A stretch of DNA of 64,000 nt from Alphaproteobacteria bacterium (GCA_045611785.1 JAZKXV010000021.1:14903-78902), one strand, 5' to 3'. Positions 24,001-30,000 are shown, numbered from the stretch's first letter. Made by a program: the numbers.

Positions 24001-27000
24001 GTTTCTTGCTCAAGTTGGGTACCTATCTTATTTCCATCAAAGTCAACCACACTACCGCTTGCATCTACATAACCTATTGCTTGGCCATTATCATCATATG
24101 CAAGTTTAGTTTTTTCTTCCACTACATTGCCGACTTCTTCGCCATTGCTATCAACTACAGTACCTTTTTTGACCTTTTTACCTATAGTTTTTCCTTTTTT
24201 ATCAACTACTGTTCCGTCTGCATTTATCTTGTATGCGGTTTCACCATTGAGGTCAACAACCGTTCCATCTTGCTTTCTGCGACCCATAAGCTTTCCGTTT
24301 TCATCATAAACAGCTTTATCCTTACTAACTTTACCGATAACGTTTCCGTTTGCATCAACTACTGTTCCATCAGGTAAAGCTTTGCCGATAACATTTCCGT
24401 TTGCATCAACTACTGTTCCGTCCGGAAGCACTCTTCCTATGATATTACCGTTTTCATCATATACTACATTTTCATTTCCAAGCACACCAAGCACTTTGCC
24501 GTTTTCATCAAACAATGTATCTTTTTCAAGCTGTGTGCCAATAACTTTTCCGTTATTATCAAGCGCTCTACCATTACTATCAATATATCCGATAGATTTT
24601 CCGTTTTTATCTTTGATAACTTTTTTACCTTTTTTAATGCGGCCAAGTTTCTTTTTATCTACAGTGTAGGCTTCGCCATTTTCATCTACATAACCGACGA
24701 TATTACCGTTTTCATCTACAATTGAGTTATCAGGCATTACAACACCTAAAACATTTCCGTTTTCATCTACAGCTGTTTTACCTGATTGGCTCACATACCC
24801 GATAACATTGCCATCAATATCAACAACTTCGCCTTTTTCATTTAAACGGCCTATAACGTTGCCATCTTTATCAACAACAGTTCCGTCATCAAGAACTTTT
24901 CCTATAATATTACCATTTTCATCATAAACATATCCAGCTTCTACAGCCTTTCCTATAACATCACCATCTAAGTCAACGATACTACCATCAGCCAACATTT
25001 TACCGATAACATTACCTTTAAAATCAACAGCTGTTCCATCCGGAGTTACAAAACCGATAATATTTCCATTATCATCATAAATAAGTTTTTTATTACCAGC
25101 TACGCCAATGATATTACCATCATTATCAACAACCAATCCGTCTGAATTTACACGTCCGATTATGTTACCATTTTCATCTCTTACGTAACCTTCTTCATCA
25201 ATGTAACCTAGTACATTTCCATCAGGATCATAAGCGACCCTCATTTTTGATGTATCTGCGCTAACCGTGCCTATTACATTGCCATTTTCATCAACGACTT
25301 CGCCATTTTCATTGAGATATCCTATTACATTGCCATTTTCATCAAGCACTCTTCCATCTGCAGTTACTCTTCCGATAATATTTCCATCTGCATCACGAAC
25401 AATTCTATCTCCACCTGCCACACCGCCAGCACTACCGGTTGTTTCGCAATAATTACAATCGTCTTTTGTAATTGCCTTACCTTCAACCGGAACTTTTTCA
25501 GCTTTTGCACTTGCTGTACTGACTGTTGTTTCATGCCATGAGATTATAAAATTGTTTTGAACGTTACCCGAAACAACAGGCGCCCATCTCATGGTAATGT
25601 TACATGTTTGATTACCTCTCAATTCGGCACTGGTACAACCATCTTCATAAGTAAAACCATCAAACGGAGGTTCAGCTAATTTAACTGAAACTACTCTAAT
25701 GGATCCTTTGCCATTTGTACCAATTGTTAACACATTTTGTGCTACAGTGCCTAAAACGACCTGTCCCATTGATATCGGATTTGGCGTAGTAGTAATAGGA
25801 TCTTCAGCATCACCTAATTCATCAAATTCTATCGCTTCTGTTAAAAGGTCATTATTTTCTTCTATTCCTAAAACATCATCATCGTCGGTAAACACAACTT
25901 CTTGAGGTTCCTCTACCTCTCCGCCGCTAGAAAACAGCAACAGCAAACCAAATAGAAAAATTACAAAAAATGTAATACCTACAATTAAGATTATTCGATT
26001 TGTTTTACGTATATATCTTTCAGATGATGTTAGGACTTCTTTACTCATTGTACTCTTACCACGCTACAGAACACACCATTACGACCTAATTGGCTACAAA
26101 TTTCATCACCGGTATCGATTGATTCAACAGGACCAATTCTTAAATGAAACAACTCTTTACCTTGTCCGTCTGCAGGAGCATCAACAGAGTAAAATGGCTG
26201 ATATCCGCCTAATACAGAATTGTACTTTCTGGATAATTCATGCCACAAGCCTTCCAAATTATCAACATCAGAATCTGTACCTAATTCAACAGAAATACTG
26301 GTAGCTTCTTCTCCTTCAAAACCTCGACCAAAGCTATATCCGCCCATCCCTTTAGCAACATTTTGCATTACAGAATAACCCTCTTGATTACCCATATTAG
26401 GTTTGTTTTTACCCATACCTTGCATTTGATTTTTAACGTATTCAGGTATTAAAAGCTCTCCATTTGGCCCCATTTTCACCACATACTCACCGGCAACACG
26501 CTCAGATGATGCTGAAGATGCTGAAGACGAATAACTTCCTGTTTCAACATTTGCTCTTAAATCGTTATTACCACTACCTTCTGCACCAGCACCACCTACA
26601 TTGATAGATGAAGAAATAGGAGCAACATTAACTACTGGTTCTGGAGCTTTTTTATTAATATCTATTAAGTCAAAACCTTGAACCACGCCACCTTGTTGAG
26701 GGTTCATTCCTGTAGGAATTTTTGGTGAAACCTGCCAATCGTTTTGATTTTCATATTGAGCAAATTCTGTACCTGATTCATCAGATCTGCGAAGCTTTAA
26801 ACAAACTATGCGTTTACCATTTCGCAAAACCATATCTCCGATACCTTCAACTATAATTAAGCGGTTATCAGGACCAGCCGCTCTAAAACCAACCGGAGTT
26901 TCAACTCTTTCGACGATAAACGTAACTATAGGACGCTGTGTCATTGTAAGAGCTCTTTCTCCAAAATCAATATAAGTGAAGATATCATCTCTCCAAACTC

Positions 27001-30000
27001 TTTCAGGAGCGATAACAACATCATCCGGATTAGGAACATACACTTCTATATCAAAACGGAACTTCGTCGGATCTAAAGGCATATTCTTTATCCAATCTTC
27101 TTTTTGATTACGCTTAGTAAATGTAGAAACTGCCGATTTTTTACCTCCGTTGAAACCTCCGGAATTTACTCTGGACCCACCACCAACAGAGCCTACAGAG
27201 CCGGATTCAGTTTGAGCAGAATCTAACACTTCAATATCAATAACAGAGTTTGTTAATCTTTCTGTATTAAAACCTTCACTTCTTGCATAAAACACATATT
27301 TATTACCGGAGCGGCCGAAAACTATAATATTTGTATCAACACCAAATCCGTTTTGAGGATACAATAAAAGCGTATTAGGTCCTGAAATCTGTCCGGCAAA
27401 TTTATTATTATCACCTATATACACATCCTCAACCATTTCCCATTCAGGAAAGTTTATCAATGTTAACATACCTTCTCTTAAACGCAACGGCAAAACCAAG
27501 TCCGGAGACCAATAATATTTTGAATAAGCAGGTTTTGTTTGCCCTTCTCCTAAATTTTGAAGAGGATCAAGCCAAGCACTTTGCGTCATACCAAGAGAAC
27601 CCATCGCATAACTCATATTCATTGACGGATATTGCCCTTGTGCGTTATCGGCTGTTTGATCAAGGCTATTTGTAGTAACTTGTGCATGAACTGAAGAGCA
27701 CATTACCACATATGTTAATACTGAAAATATTTTACTTAAAAACTTTACCATTTCCACAAACCTTTTACTCTGCTTTATTACGTTTTAGCGAATATCTAAC
27801 TACAGTGAAGCCTACCGGATTATTAAGCCTTTCACCATATTTTACATTTTTCTTACGATACACTATTCTAAGAGAAGCTGTCCAATATTCAATCTGAGGC
27901 GCAGATGAAGAAGGATACATATCTCTTGTTTCGTACTCTACTTGCCACAAGCCTCTACCTAACTCATTCACCGTCATAATTCTGATAGATCTTGTAAGGC
28001 CTTGCTTTTTAATAATATCTAAAACTGTATTTGCTGTTTTTTCTATAAATGCCTGATAAACAGCAGATGATGACATTTCTTGTATAGGACCACCCGGCAT
28101 CCAACGAGATTCCATTTCATTTATATTATTAGAAAAAGCACTACGCATAAGCACATATTCTCTAACAAAAACCTCTGTAATATCTTTGTCATCTTCCAAA
28201 TTAACAAAAGGCTGAATATCGTACACTTGTTCCTGTTTATTTTCAAATGTAAGTATAAATGGTTCAAGACGATACAAAGGCAACAATTGCGTTATAGCCA
28301 AAAGCAATATAAAATTGCAACACAAGCTAATAGCAACCACGACAGCAAAAGCCCTTGCAGTCCACAAATATCTACGTTCTCCGGCATTAACTATTACATC
28401 TTCATGCTTTGGTTTGCGTGAAGGAGCCGGCCTGCGAGCAGCTTGAGGTGGAGCGCCACGATTTCCTATTAAACGACGATTTGTGTTATTTATACCCAAA
28501 TGTTCAGCCATTTCACACCCTATTATATTGTTGCAACAAACCATTCAGGAAGTGTGTGCGGTAGTTCAACTTCAATGCACGCACATGGTGATAACTTAAG
28601 TTCATTAACATCTTTACCTATACCAACAGGCTCCGGCTCATAATAAGAGCCGCATGACGATAGCAACATAACCATCATAAACAAAAACACTTTTTTATAC
28701 ATTGCAATGTTCCTTATAATTACATGTCTAGACATTATTACATTAAACTTTTTATTTTTAAAAGTCTAACATAACCTTCCAAATCCCCAACTTATCAACA
28801 AGTTAGAGACCCTTTTATAATATCATAAACTAAAAAGATTAAAATAAATTAAAGAATTTCAACTTCTGTTTGAGAATATTTTGTTACCGTAAAACCCAAA
28901 GGATTCATCAAACGTTTCGACATAAACATTCTATCCGGCACAAAAACAGCCACAATAGACGCTGTCCAATATTGTGTTTTCAGCACCAACTCATTGGTGG
29001 TTAAGTTTCTAACCATTGGAGATAATTCGTATGTTTTAAAATCCACCTTCCAAATAGGGCTCTTATCTCCACCAACTTTATTAACCGATATGATTTCTAC
29101 AGACCTTGATGTTTTATCCTTAGACAGCTCTTGCAACTGAGCTTCCACCCTTTTCATAGGCTTAACATACACACCTCGCTCAAATTCATCAAAAACCTTA
29201 TCTGAAGATAAATAATTTATCATTCCACCACCAAACCACCTACTTTGCATTTCTCGTTCATCATCAATAACAGTATGTCTGAGTATAACATATTGTCTGA
29301 TAAACAGCTCCATCATTTGTTTTGCTGATGGCATTTTGGTAGAAATGGTTTCATATCTAACCATTTCATCAGAATTATCCTGACGAATAATCAAAAAAGG
29401 CTCAACATGTACTTCAGGGGCTAGCTTAAATAATACCAAAGAAGCACTGGTAAAAAACATTAAGGAAAGTATTGCTATAAAAGCCACAAACCTTGCTAAC
29501 CAACAGTAATAAACTTCTTTTGCAGAACCATGTACCTGACCTACAGATGTTACATAATTTACGTCTGATACATTCTTATAGGAAGTACCTATTGCAAGCC
29601 GTTCATTTGTTGAACCCAATTGATTATTCATATTTTCTCCGGTTCTTAATATACAGCACAGTATGGTGACATATAGTTTTCTTCTTGATCAGTATATGAA
29701 CTTTCTACTCTTTCATCATACTCACCAAGTGTTGCCTTATCAGTATCCGCTCTGGCAATAGCTTCTTGAAGCTCTTCCAAAGTCATATTTTCTGAAATGT
29801 TAACAAGAGCCCCAACGTCTTCTTTTAACATAGCCAGTAAATTATCTATTCTTTCAAGGCTTTCATATATCATACTACTGTTTATGTCATCAACATTTTT
29901 GAGCATCTCTTGAACATTTGCAAGCATAGCTTCAGCTTCTTTAACTTTATTATCTTTAATTGTCTTCAACTCTGCAATAAAGCCATCAGATACCTCTTGT

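What the first reader, a model, noticed from the sequence alone, without database searches (positions are those of the whole stretch)
26045..27757. VirB9 fused to a SPOR peptidoglycan-binding domain
After recognizable VirB9 N- and C-domains comes a Ser/Gly-rich linker. The last roughly 50 residues (FHLRIGPVESIDTGDEICSQLGRNGVFCSVVRV) fit the SPOR domain consensus, which binds denuded glycan strands. A SPOR-anchored VirB9, together with the lack of a VirB1 transglycosylase, suggests a different mode of anchoring or inserting the outer-membrane complex in the cell wall. To my knowledge no T4SS outer-membrane core complex carries a SPOR fusion.
Basis: partly seen in the sequence, partly recalled or inferred. 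Interest (0 to 1): 0.7.

Follow-up and report, generated by a model that had tools for sequence, protein, structure and literature searches.

The report
VirB9 with a tethered, atypical SPOR domain
The outer-membrane ring protein (VirB9) of a type IV secretion system in uncultured gut Alphaproteobacteria ends in a cell-wall-binding-type (SPOR) domain on a long flexible tether; the fusion is real and widespread, but the domain lacks the residues that ordinary SPOR domains use to grip the cell wall.

Summary
ORF 26045..27757 (-) encodes a 570-aa secreted protein. It has a VirB9 core (Pfam CagX, E=3e-12), a 161-aa variable low-complexity linker, and an 84-aa C-terminal domain homologous to SPOR domains.

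SPOR evidence:
- Pfam scores 22.6 bits for the domain alone (cut-off 21).
- hhalign against 24 Pfam-verified SPORs gives 99.5%, E=6e-23.

The fusion is not an artefact. At least 232 species genomes of gut and rumen Alphaproteobacteria encode a relative. The 80 loci examined all keep the SPOR-like C-terminus and the same operon order. Plasmid VirB9s of cultured Erythrobacter and Sphingosinicella carry a more divergent copy.

- The two signature ligand positions are acidic here (Gln to Glu491, Phe to Asp495) and the domain has net charge -7, so canonical denuded-glycan binding is doubtful.
- SPOR-less relatives also lack an annotated VirB1, so that link is unsupported.
- Cell-wall anchoring of a T4SS core complex already has a precedent in Legionella DotK.

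I found no paper describing a VirB9-SPOR fusion. Verdict: a new variant of a known kind, of moderate interest.

The parts
27683..27757 (-). Sec-type signal peptide of VirB9-SPOR (residues 1-25, ...SSVHA|QV). There is no conserved lipobox.
   Evidence: Read from the sequence. Alignment A2 shows a hydrophobic N-terminus and an A-x-A-type site in all homologues, and the Cys is not conserved.
27521..27682 (-). Conserved N-terminal extension (residues 26-79) that precedes the Pfam VirB9 match.
   Evidence: 22 of 54 positions are invariant across 81 species-level sequences. It has no Pfam match.
27224..27520 (-). VirB9 N-terminal domain (residues 80-178).
   Evidence: Pfam CagX PF03524, E=3.1e-12. 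TIGR02781 partial match over residues 83-158. AF2 predicts beta strands at 99-158 with pLDDT 52-69.
27113..27223 (-). First Gly/Ser-rich linker (residues 179-215).
   Evidence: Alignment A2. Mean conservation 0.56, no invariant column.
26783..27112 (-). VirB9 C-terminal domain (residues 216-325).
   Evidence: The Pfam CagX match runs to residue 320. 58 of 110 positions are invariant. tblastn to annotated plasmid VirB9 proteins covers query residues 13-326, best E=3e-52.
26300..26782 (-). Long low-complexity tether (residues 326-486).
   Evidence: Conservation 0.28. Length varies from 109 to 169 aa among 81 sequences. Rich in G, S and N. AF2 pLDDT is below 50.
26048..26299 (-). SPOR-family domain (residues 487-570), an acidic 'E-type' variant with two invariant Cys (C554, C564).
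28523..28702 (-). Candidate VirB7-like small lipoprotein (MYKKVFLFMMVMLLSS|C...), lying between the two VirB8 paralogues.
   Evidence: Lipobox L-S-S-C read from the translation. tblastn finds it at the same position in 80 of 80 related loci, at 58-83% identity in the loci printed.
27765..28544 (-). VirB8 paralogue b.
   Evidence: Pfam VirB8, E=1.9e-21.
28849..29631 (-). VirB8 paralogue a.
   Evidence: Pfam VirB8, E=1.2e-14.
20940..26048 (-). 1702-aa membrane-anchored beta-flower / YD-repeat protein. Its ATG overlaps the VirB9 stop codon (caATGA).
   Evidence: Pfam Bflower_2, E=7.6e-123. One N-terminal TM-like segment. Overlap read. Conserved downstream of VirB9 in 80 of 80 loci.
16721..20977 (-). 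Giant VirB10 (1418 aa): N-terminal TM segment, beta-flower repeats, and a C-terminal TrbI domain.
   Evidence: Pfam TrbI, E=1.1e-29 at residues 1119-1310; Bflower_2, E=2.3e-44. TM-like segment at 21-39.
15740..16708 (-). VirB11-type ATPase.
   Evidence: Pfam T2SSE, E=4.3e-21. 78-95% identical in the related loci printed.
37136..39622 (-). VirB4 ATPase.
   Evidence: Pfam CagE_TrbE_VirB, E=2.8e-18.
39988..41968 (-). Three tandem VirB2-type pilin genes (129, 131 and 383 aa).
   Evidence: Pfam TrbC: E=3.1e-9 (37.4 bits, above the 27.9 cut-off) for the 129-aa ORF; E=1.8e-4 and 4.2e-3 (both below the cut-off) for the other two.

Best explanation
This is the VirB9 subunit of the outer-membrane core complex of a chromosomal, VirB/D4-like (P-type) type IV secretion system. 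A SPOR-family domain has been fused to its C-terminus through a flexible tether of about 110-170 residues.

Proposed mechanism:
1. The protein is exported by Sec.
2. Its two VirB9 domains assemble with the VirB7-like lipoprotein and the VirB10 C-terminal domain under the outer membrane.
3. Each VirB9 copy then lets a disulfide-stabilised SPOR-type head hang down on its tether to the peptidoglycan layer. In solved P-type systems there are about 14 copies.
4. The heads bind the cell-wall glycan and so anchor the machine. Since SPOR domains read a local chemical state of the wall, they may also position it at particular sites such as septa or new poles.

Shown: the domain architecture, the SPOR homology and fold, strong purifying selection on the domain, the variable tether, and the operon context.

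Inferred: the ring stoichiometry and geometry (from solved pKM101 and R388 core complexes, my knowledge), wall binding, and the anchoring or positioning role.

The ligand is probably not recognised in the canonical way, because the signature Gln and Phe are replaced by Glu and Asp and the domain is acidic.
For: VirB9 identity:
- Pfam CagX E=3.1e-12, above its cut-off.
- tblastn to annotated plasmid VirB9 proteins, E=3e-52.
- The order VirB8 - VirB7-like - VirB8 - VirB9 - (giant protein) - VirB10 - VirB11 is kept in 80 of 80 related species loci.

SPOR identity:
- Pfam SPOR in 14 of 14 members.
- phmmer with the domain against 1.84 billion representatives retrieves multi-SPOR proteins. 37 of 50 sampled carry Pfam SPOR, best E=2.5e-34.
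- hhalign against 24 Pfam-verified SPORs: 99.5%, E=6e-23.
- A broad profile hits CwlC, FtsN, RlpA and DamX SPOR structures, with CwlC first at E=0.0012.

Functional importance: 39 of 84 SPOR positions are invariant across 81 species. The adjoining tether is only 0.28 conserved and varies from 109 to 169 aa.

Partial retention of the binding face: L536, H538 and R540 align with RlpA L307, R309 and R311. The paper reports that most RlpA-glycan contacts are main-chain contacts.

Precedent for the role: DotK of the Legionella Dot/Icm core complex binds peptidoglycan and is needed for polar localisation of that system (PMC10266036).
Against: The ligand-contact signature is not kept:
- E491 replaces the highly conserved Gln (RlpA Q270, FtsN Q251), whose amide donates hydrogen bonds to the MurNAc lactyl carboxylate and the GlcNAc N-acetyl group.
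- D495 replaces the preferred Phe (F274).
- The domain has net charge -7 (pI 4.5). VirB9-linked domains have median pI 4.8 against 8.0 for ordinary alphaproteobacterial SPORs. Canonical SPORs keep a basic patch for the ligand's carboxylates.
- The beta2-beta3 loop (D526-E535) is invariant, which is unusual for SPOR domains and could mark a protein interface.

Structural support is only moderate. pLDDT is 72. Foldseek gives no PDB hit at E<=0.001, and the fold is a common ferredoxin-like one. No binding or localisation experiment exists.
Confidence: 0.55

Rival explanations
1. The C-terminal domain descends from a SPOR domain but no longer binds peptidoglycan. It has been re-used as a protein-protein interaction module inside the secretion machine. 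Possible partners are the co-translated beta-flower giant protein, the extended VirB10, or the VirB7-like lipoprotein.
For: Both signature ligand positions are lost and the domain is acidic. The beta2-beta3 loop and many surface positions are invariant across 80 species, which fits a fixed protein partner. The downstream giant gene is translationally coupled (ATGA overlap) and co-conserved in 80 of 80 loci.
Against: The Erythrobacter and Sphingosinicella plasmid VirB9s carry a related domain but have ordinary-sized neighbours and no beta-flower giant. So the domain does not depend on those partners. A long variable tether suits reaching a distant layer better than forming a fixed intra-complex contact.
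Confidence: 0.22
2. The domain still reads the cell wall, but a different mark from denuded glycan. Glu491 and Asp495 would then recognise a cationic feature such as de-N-acetylated GlcN or MurN residues or free amines. That would give the T4SS a spatial cue distinct from the one used by divisome SPOR proteins.
For: The Q-to-E change, loss of the aromatic residue and an acidic surface occur together. The same combination is seen in a separate set of non-VirB9 'E-type' SPOR domains: 16 domains with no aromatic at position 495. That suggests a distinct specificity class rather than decay. In simulations, de-N-acetylated peptidoglycan cannot hydrogen-bond to the canonical Gln. Wall acetylation state controls Dot/Icm localisation through DotK. 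Some Alphaproteobacteria de-N-acetylate glycan chain ends (PMC10838918).
Against: This is entirely inferential and no ligand data exist. No deacetylase gene was seen in the window. Acidic residues could equally be structural, for example in salt bridges with R540 or R568.
Confidence: 0.15
3. The SPOR resemblance is a chance match of a small ferredoxin-like domain, or the fusion is an assembly or gene-calling artefact.
For: The full-length Pfam SPOR score is below its cut-off (17.7 against 21). A narrow family profile finds nothing in the PDB. Foldseek ranks PII-like proteins ahead of SPOR.
Against: hhalign E=6e-23 against verified SPORs. phmmer returns SPOR proteins reciprocally from 1.84 billion sequences. 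The same uninterrupted ORF occurs in 80 of 80 species loci and in more than 1500 database proteins.
Confidence: 0.02

Closest known systems
Canonical VirB9 / TrbG / TraO / CagX (Pfam PF03524) of P-type T4SS outer-membrane core complexes
   Same: It has a signal peptide and N- and C-terminal VirB9 domains matched over the whole Pfam profile. It lies between virB8 and virB10, next to a small lipoprotein gene.
   Different: It carries a C-terminal extension of about 245 residues (tether plus SPOR-type domain) and a conserved N-terminal extension of 54 residues. It scores far below the NCBIfam VirB9 equivalog cut-off (32.6 against 217.7). No PDB VirB9 is reachable by sequence profile.
SPOR domains of FtsN, DamX, DedD, RlpA and CwlC (Pfam PF05036)
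   Same: The size (about 80 aa) and the beta-alpha-beta-beta-alpha-beta fold match. The beta3 motif L-x-[RH]-x-R-x-G-P is kept. The domain sits at the end of a disordered linker, as in most SPOR proteins.
   Different: Glu replaces the conserved Gln, Asp replaces the preferred Phe, and the net charge is -7. The disulfide pair lies in alpha2/beta4, the pattern shared by alphaproteobacterial SPORs. The domain is attached to a secretion-system subunit rather than to a divisome or wall-hydrolase protein.
DotK of the Legionella Dot/Icm (type IVB) core complex
   Same: It is an outer-membrane core-complex component that binds peptidoglycan and helps fix the machine's location (PMC10266036).
   Different: DotK is a separate lipoprotein with an OmpA-like domain, in a type IVB system. 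Here the wall-binding-type module is a SPOR homologue fused to VirB9 itself, in a VirB-type system.
Plasmid VirB9 proteins of Erythrobacter aureus YH-07 (WP_115418090.1) and Sphingosinicella sp. BN140058 (WP_129392748.1)
   Same: They are the closest annotated relatives of the VirB9 core (36-37% identity). They also end in a SPOR-like domain with the two Cys and the RLRVGP motif (hhalign 97.3-97.4%, E about 1e-11).
   Different: Their tether is much shorter and Asp occupies the Gln position. Pfam does not detect the domain. In Erythrobacter the operon is conjugative in type, with a MobA/MobL relaxase and a coupling protein. The window shows no relaxase or VirD4 and has giant beta-flower proteins.

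Membership tests
VirB9/TrbG/CagX (PF03524) | Match to the family profile above the curated cut-off, covering both domains | tested here: met
   47.2 bits against a cut-off of 34.2, E=3.1e-12, profile positions 4-195 of 198.
VirB9/TrbG/CagX (PF03524) | Similarity to proteins annotated as VirB9 in characterised T4SS operons | tested here: met
   tblastn to 19 plasmid records, best E=3e-52, query residues 13-326. The hits are annotated TrbG/VirB9 and lie between VirB8 and VirB10.
VirB9/TrbG/CagX (PF03524) | Operon context: next to virB8 and virB10, with virB4, virB11 and virB2 in the cluster | tested here: met
   The order is conserved in 80 of 80 related loci.
VirB9/TrbG/CagX (PF03524) | Periplasmic export signal | tested here: met
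   Hydrophobic N-terminus with a VHA|Q site, conserved in type across the family. No dedicated predictor was run.
VirB9/TrbG/CagX (PF03524) | NCBIfam equivalog of P-type VirB9 (TIGR02781) | tested here: not met
   32.6 bits against a cut-off of 217.7. This is a divergent subfamily, not the canonical equivalog.
VirB9/TrbG/CagX (PF03524) | Two beta-sandwich domains that form the I- and O-layers of a multimeric ring with VirB7 and VirB10 | tested here: inconclusive
   The full-length AF2 model is poor (pLDDT 43). N-domain strands are modelled at pLDDT 52-69 and the C-domain is not modelled. Ring assembly cannot be tested here.
SPOR domain (PF05036) | Match to the family profile above the curated cut-off | tested here: met
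   The domain alone scores 22.6 bits against a cut-off of 21, E=1.3e-4, and 14 of 14 members match (best 5e-7). In the full-length protein the score is 17.7 bits, below the cut-off.
SPOR domain (PF05036) | Profile-profile homology to verified SPOR domains | tested here: met
   hhalign 99.5%, E=6.1e-23 over 85 columns, against 24 domains that each match Pfam SPOR.
SPOR domain (PF05036) | beta-alpha-beta-beta-alpha-beta (RNP-like) fold of about 70-80 residues | tested here: met
SPOR domain (PF05036) | Conserved Gln on beta1 (Pfam position 8; RlpA Q270, FtsN Q251) that hydrogen-bonds the glycan | tested here: not met
   Glu491 in the window protein and in 79 of 80 related species (the exception looks like a one-residue register shift). 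It is Glu in 32 of 34 VirB9-linked domains. The role of the Gln is taken from PMC6895207.
SPOR domain (PF05036) | Aromatic residue at Pfam position 12 (RlpA F274) and a basic patch for the MurNAc carboxylates | tested here: not met
   Asp495 occupies the aromatic position. An aromatic is present in 0 of 34 VirB9-linked domains, against 49 of 66 ordinary ones. Net charge is -7. Only R540 (equivalent to R311) and H538 (equivalent to R309) remain.
SPOR domain (PF05036) | Binding to amidase-processed (denuded) peptidoglycan; septal localisation | not testable with these tools
   Needs sacculus pull-down or ITC and localisation experiments.

The most novel reading that the evidence does not exclude
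VirB9-linked SPOR domains, together with a parallel set of non-VirB9 'E-type' SPOR domains in Alphaproteobacteria, form a distinct specificity class. This class would read a different chemical mark on peptidoglycan, for example de-N-acetylated or otherwise cationic glycan sites, rather than denuded glycan. The secretion system would use this mark as a built-in address label that decides where in the envelope it is assembled or held.
Probability: 0.12. Interest if true: 0.75.

Novelty: new variant of a known kind. Interest (0 to 1): 0.45.

Why it matters
How large envelope-spanning machines are fixed in, and positioned relative to, the cell wall is only partly understood for type IV secretion systems. 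The one studied case (DotK in Legionella) uses a separate OmpA-like lipoprotein.

Here a wall-binding-type module is built into the core ring subunit itself. It is under strong selection in hundreds of gut and rumen alphaproteobacterial species and also occurs on plasmids of culturable bacteria, so it can be tested experimentally.

The altered binding residues also flag a possible new ligand class within the SPOR family. That matters because SPOR domains are widely used as probes for septal peptidoglycan.

Practically, current annotation calls these proteins plain 'TrbG/VirB9' or 'hypothetical' and usually misses the domain.

Tried and rejected
Searches and models that gave nothing useful:
- Single-sequence phmmer of the whole protein against the PDB gave no meaningful hit.
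- A narrow family profile of the C-terminal domain (A1) against the PDB found nothing. Only a broadened profile (A4) reached the SPOR structures, and weakly.
- A full-length family profile (A2) against the PDB found nothing, so no solved VirB9 is reachable by sequence.
- Full-length AF2 with 26 close homologues was too poor (pLDDT 43) to fold-search the VirB9 part.
- Foldseek of the domain against the PDB was not discriminating, because the ferredoxin-like fold is so common.
- Three literature searches for VirB9 or T4SS together with SPOR found nothing relevant, and one for RF32 found nothing.
- Cluster-name look-up for distant VirB9-SPOR representatives gave no taxonomy.

Ideas considered and rejected:
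- Assembly or gene-fusion artefact: the ORF is intact in 80 of 80 loci.
- VirB9 as a lipoprotein: the Cys in the signal peptide is not conserved.
- A causal link between the SPOR domain and absence of VirB1: SPOR-less relatives also lack an annotated VirB1.

Not resolved: whether the 1410-aa ORF (29646..33878) is the VirB6 equivalent. It has no Pfam hit and only one strong hydrophobic segment.

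
Full report
**What is at the coordinates.** The window holds one ORF at 26045..27757 on the minus strand (570 aa, GTG start). Its stop codon overlaps the ATG of the next gene (caATGA).

An alignment of 26 homologues (A2) and per-region conservation in 81 species-level sequences give this anatomy:

| Residues | Feature | Conservation |
|---|---|---|
| 1-25 | signal peptide | - |
| 26-79 | conserved N-terminal extension | 22/54 invariant |
| 80-178 | VirB9 N-domain | mean 0.87 |
| 179-215 | Gly/Ser linker | mean 0.56 |
| 216-325 | VirB9 C-domain | mean 0.90 |
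| 326-486 | low-complexity tether, length 109-169 aa among species | mean 0.28 |
| 487-570 | C-terminal domain | mean 0.81, 39/84 invariant |

**The VirB9 claim.**
- Pfam CagX/VirB9 matches residues 79-320 over almost the whole profile (E=3.1e-12, 47.2 bits against a cut-off of 34.2).
- tblastn against 72,556 plasmids finds 19 records, all over query residues about 13-326. The hits fall on genes annotated TrbG/VirB9 that sit between VirB8 and VirB10 (best E=3e-52).
- In the window the gene lies in a complete minus-strand cluster: three VirB2-type pilins, a VirB3-like 96-aa two-TM protein, VirB4, four unassigned proteins, VirB8, a 59-70-aa lipoprotein candidate (VirB7-like), a second VirB8, VirB9, a 1702-aa beta-flower/YD-repeat protein, a 1418-aa VirB10 and VirB11.
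- The protein is a divergent VirB9. It is far below the NCBIfam equivalog cut-off, and no solved VirB9 is reachable by sequence.
- The full-length AF2 model was too poor to add anything for this part.

**The SPOR claim.** In the full-length protein the Pfam SPOR match is sub-threshold (17.7 bits, E=0.0047). Several independent tests then agree that the domain is a SPOR homologue.
- Scanned alone, the last 95 residues score 22.6 bits (cut-off 21). All 14 diverse family members match (best E=5e-7).
- phmmer with the domain against 1.84 billion representatives gives 153 hits at E<=0.001. Beyond the VirB9-linked group these are proteins with two or three matching stretches. 37 of 50 sampled carry Pfam SPOR (best E=2.5e-34).
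- hhalign of the VirB9-linked domains against 24 non-VirB9 domains, each individually Pfam-verified as SPOR, gives 99.5% probability, E=6.1e-23, over 85 columns.
- A broadened profile finds CwlC SPOR as the top PDB hit (E=0.0012). FtsN, RlpA and DamX SPOR structures are also listed.
- Foldseek is not discriminating for this common fold, although RlpA SPOR has the best TM-scores.

I take homology to the SPOR family as established.

**Not an artefact, and not rare.** More than 1500 database proteins match full length. A scan of one genome per species finds 232 genomes with a relative. The 80 retrieved are all uncultured gut, rumen or faecal Alphaproteobacteria. They include Candidatus Scatocola faecigallinarum, which NCBI places in Rhodospirillales. 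From my own knowledge this looks like GTDB order RF32; I did not verify that.

All 80 loci carry the intact ORF with the domain and the same gene order. More distant VirB9-SPOR proteins occur in other metagenomic lineages with the same operon plan.

The closest annotated relatives of the VirB9 core are plasmid proteins of cultured Erythrobacter aureus YH-07 and Sphingosinicella sp. BN140058. They also end in a SPOR-like domain (YEVDLGSGS...VRLRVGPF...VCKAM..GKSCAV). Pfam misses it, but hhalign recognises it at 97.3-97.4%, E about 1e-11, including against the purely non-VirB9 SPOR profile. The Erythrobacter operon has a MobA/MobL relaxase and a coupling protein. The fusion therefore spans both conjugative plasmid systems and the chromosomal system seen here. 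A Microvirga plasmid VirB9 (550 aa) gives only a weak signal.

**Where it departs from known SPOR domains.** The structural study of RlpA SPOR with glycan ligands (PMC6895207) reports the following:
- The only highly conserved ligand-contacting side chain is a Gln (RlpA Q270, FtsN Q251, Pfam position 8). Its amide donates hydrogen bonds to the MurNAc lactyl carboxylate and the GlcNAc N-acetyl group.
- Position 12 is preferentially Phe (F274, a CH/pi contact).
- A basic patch (R302, R309, R311) is preserved in all solved SPORs.
- Most other contacts are made by the main chain.

My alignments give these equivalences: Q270 to E491, F274 to D495, L307 to L536, R309 to H538, and R311 to R540.
- E491 and D495 are present in 79 of 80 species. 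The single exception looks like a one-residue register shift.
- Glu is found in 32 of 34 VirB9-linked domains. An aromatic at position 495 is found in 0 of 34, against 49 of 66 ordinary alphaproteobacterial SPORs.
- The window domain has net charge -7 (pI 4.5). The VirB9-linked group has median pI 4.8, against 8.0 for ordinary ones.
- The same coupled change (Glu and no aromatic) occurs in 16 non-VirB9 SPOR domains, which hints at a distinct subclass.
- The beta2-beta3 loop D526-E535 is invariant.

So the fold and ancestry are SPOR, but canonical recognition of the polyanionic denuded glycan cannot be assumed.

**Mechanism.** What follows is inference. It rests on established knowledge of solved P-type core complexes (pKM101, R388): the VirB9 C-domain lies in the outer layer under the outer membrane, with VirB7 and the VirB10 C-domain.

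The chain leaves that layer and continues as a 109-169-residue disordered tether ending in a compact, probably disulfide-bonded head. Two Cys are invariant in all alphaproteobacterial SPORs aligned. Such a tether is long enough to reach the peptidoglycan layer. The most economical reading is a ring of tethered wall-binding heads that anchors the machine or restricts where it sits.

Legionella DotK is an experimental precedent. It is a peptidoglycan-binding core-complex lipoprotein whose binding depends on wall acetylation and which is needed for polar localisation (PMC10266036).

I give this reading about 0.55. The rivals are a re-purposed protein-interaction module (about 0.22), a switched wall ligand (about 0.15), and a chance match or artefact (about 0.02).

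**The VirB1 argument.** No SLT-type domain was found in any ORF of 90 aa or more in the window, nor in four distant VirB9-SPOR contexts. One of those has an M23 peptidase in the operon.

However, SPOR-less relatives on Magnetospirillum and Roseibium plasmids also have no annotated VirB1, and the rest of this genome is unseen. The proposed link between the SPOR domain and loss of VirB1 is therefore not supported.

**Novelty and score.** Searches of 8 million full texts found no paper connecting VirB9 or T4SS core complexes with SPOR domains. The architecture is nevertheless abundant in databases and is partly flagged by precomputed Pfam hits. The general principle of wall-binding modules on envelope machines is known.

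I rate it a new variant of a known kind, with interest 0.45. The acidic 'E-type' binding face is the most interesting lead.

Noticed in passing
window 20940..26048 (-) and 16721..20977 (-): Two giant membrane-anchored proteins full of beta-flower / YD-type repeats follow virB9. The second (1418 aa) ends in the TrbI/VirB10 domain, so VirB10 here carries about 1000 extra residues. The first (1702 aa) is translationally coupled to VirB9. Both are conserved in nearly all 80 related loci.
   Followed up: partly
window 28523..28735 (-): A small unannotated ORF lies between the two virB8 paralogues. It has a lipobox (LLSS|C), is conserved at the same position in 80 of 80 related loci, and is a likely VirB7 equivalent.
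   Followed up: partly
window 39988..41968 (-): Three tandem VirB2-type pilin genes. The third (383 aa) has a long Gly/Asp-rich C-terminal extension that is unusual for a T4SS pilin. Only the first passes the Pfam cut-off.
   Followed up: no
window 29646..37056 (-): Four conserved T4SS-cluster proteins (1410, 429, 220 and 426 aa) have no significant Pfam match. The 1410-aa protein occupies the place where VirB6 is expected but shows only one strong hydrophobic segment. The others are coiled-coil-like and charged.
   Followed up: partly
window 44481..53449 (+) and 6130..6834 (-): A type IVb pilus cluster (TcpQ, secretin, PilO, ATPase, platform protein, bundlin/PilS-type pilins) lies next to the T4SS cluster and is transcribed divergently from it. 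An extra pilin gene lies upstream.
   Followed up: no
window 26300..26782 (-), residues about 439-480 of VirB9: Inside the otherwise variable tether, short motifs recur across species (GEY.VK.G.NGEL.VPEY, DYSKM, Y.[YF]G.GF). These may be short linear binding motifs.
   Followed up: no
L085 11923..13221 and L086 2986..4278 (Erythrobacter aureus and Sphingosinicella plasmids): RefSeq VirB9 proteins of cultured strains carry a C-terminal SPOR-like domain that Pfam does not detect. Asp occupies the conserved Gln position.
   Followed up: yes
proteins P0151-P0196 (for example P0153, P0157, P0178, P0180): Many alphaproteobacterial proteins carry two SPOR domains. The N-terminal one is an 'E-type' variant (x-E-L-G, R-I-Q-A-G-P) and the C-terminal one is the ordinary Q-type. 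This suggests two specificity classes within one protein.
   Followed up: partly
L084 4172..5635: In one distant VirB9-SPOR lineage a Peptidase_M23 (LytM-type) protein is encoded inside the T4SS cluster. It is a possible wall-remodelling partner in place of VirB1.
   Followed up: no
window 7299..12821 (-) and 763..4206 (-): Two further very large ORFs. One is 1840 aa with a pectate-lyase-like adhesive domain (24.2 bits, just under the 24.3 cut-off). The other is 1147 aa with no Pfam match.
   Followed up: no
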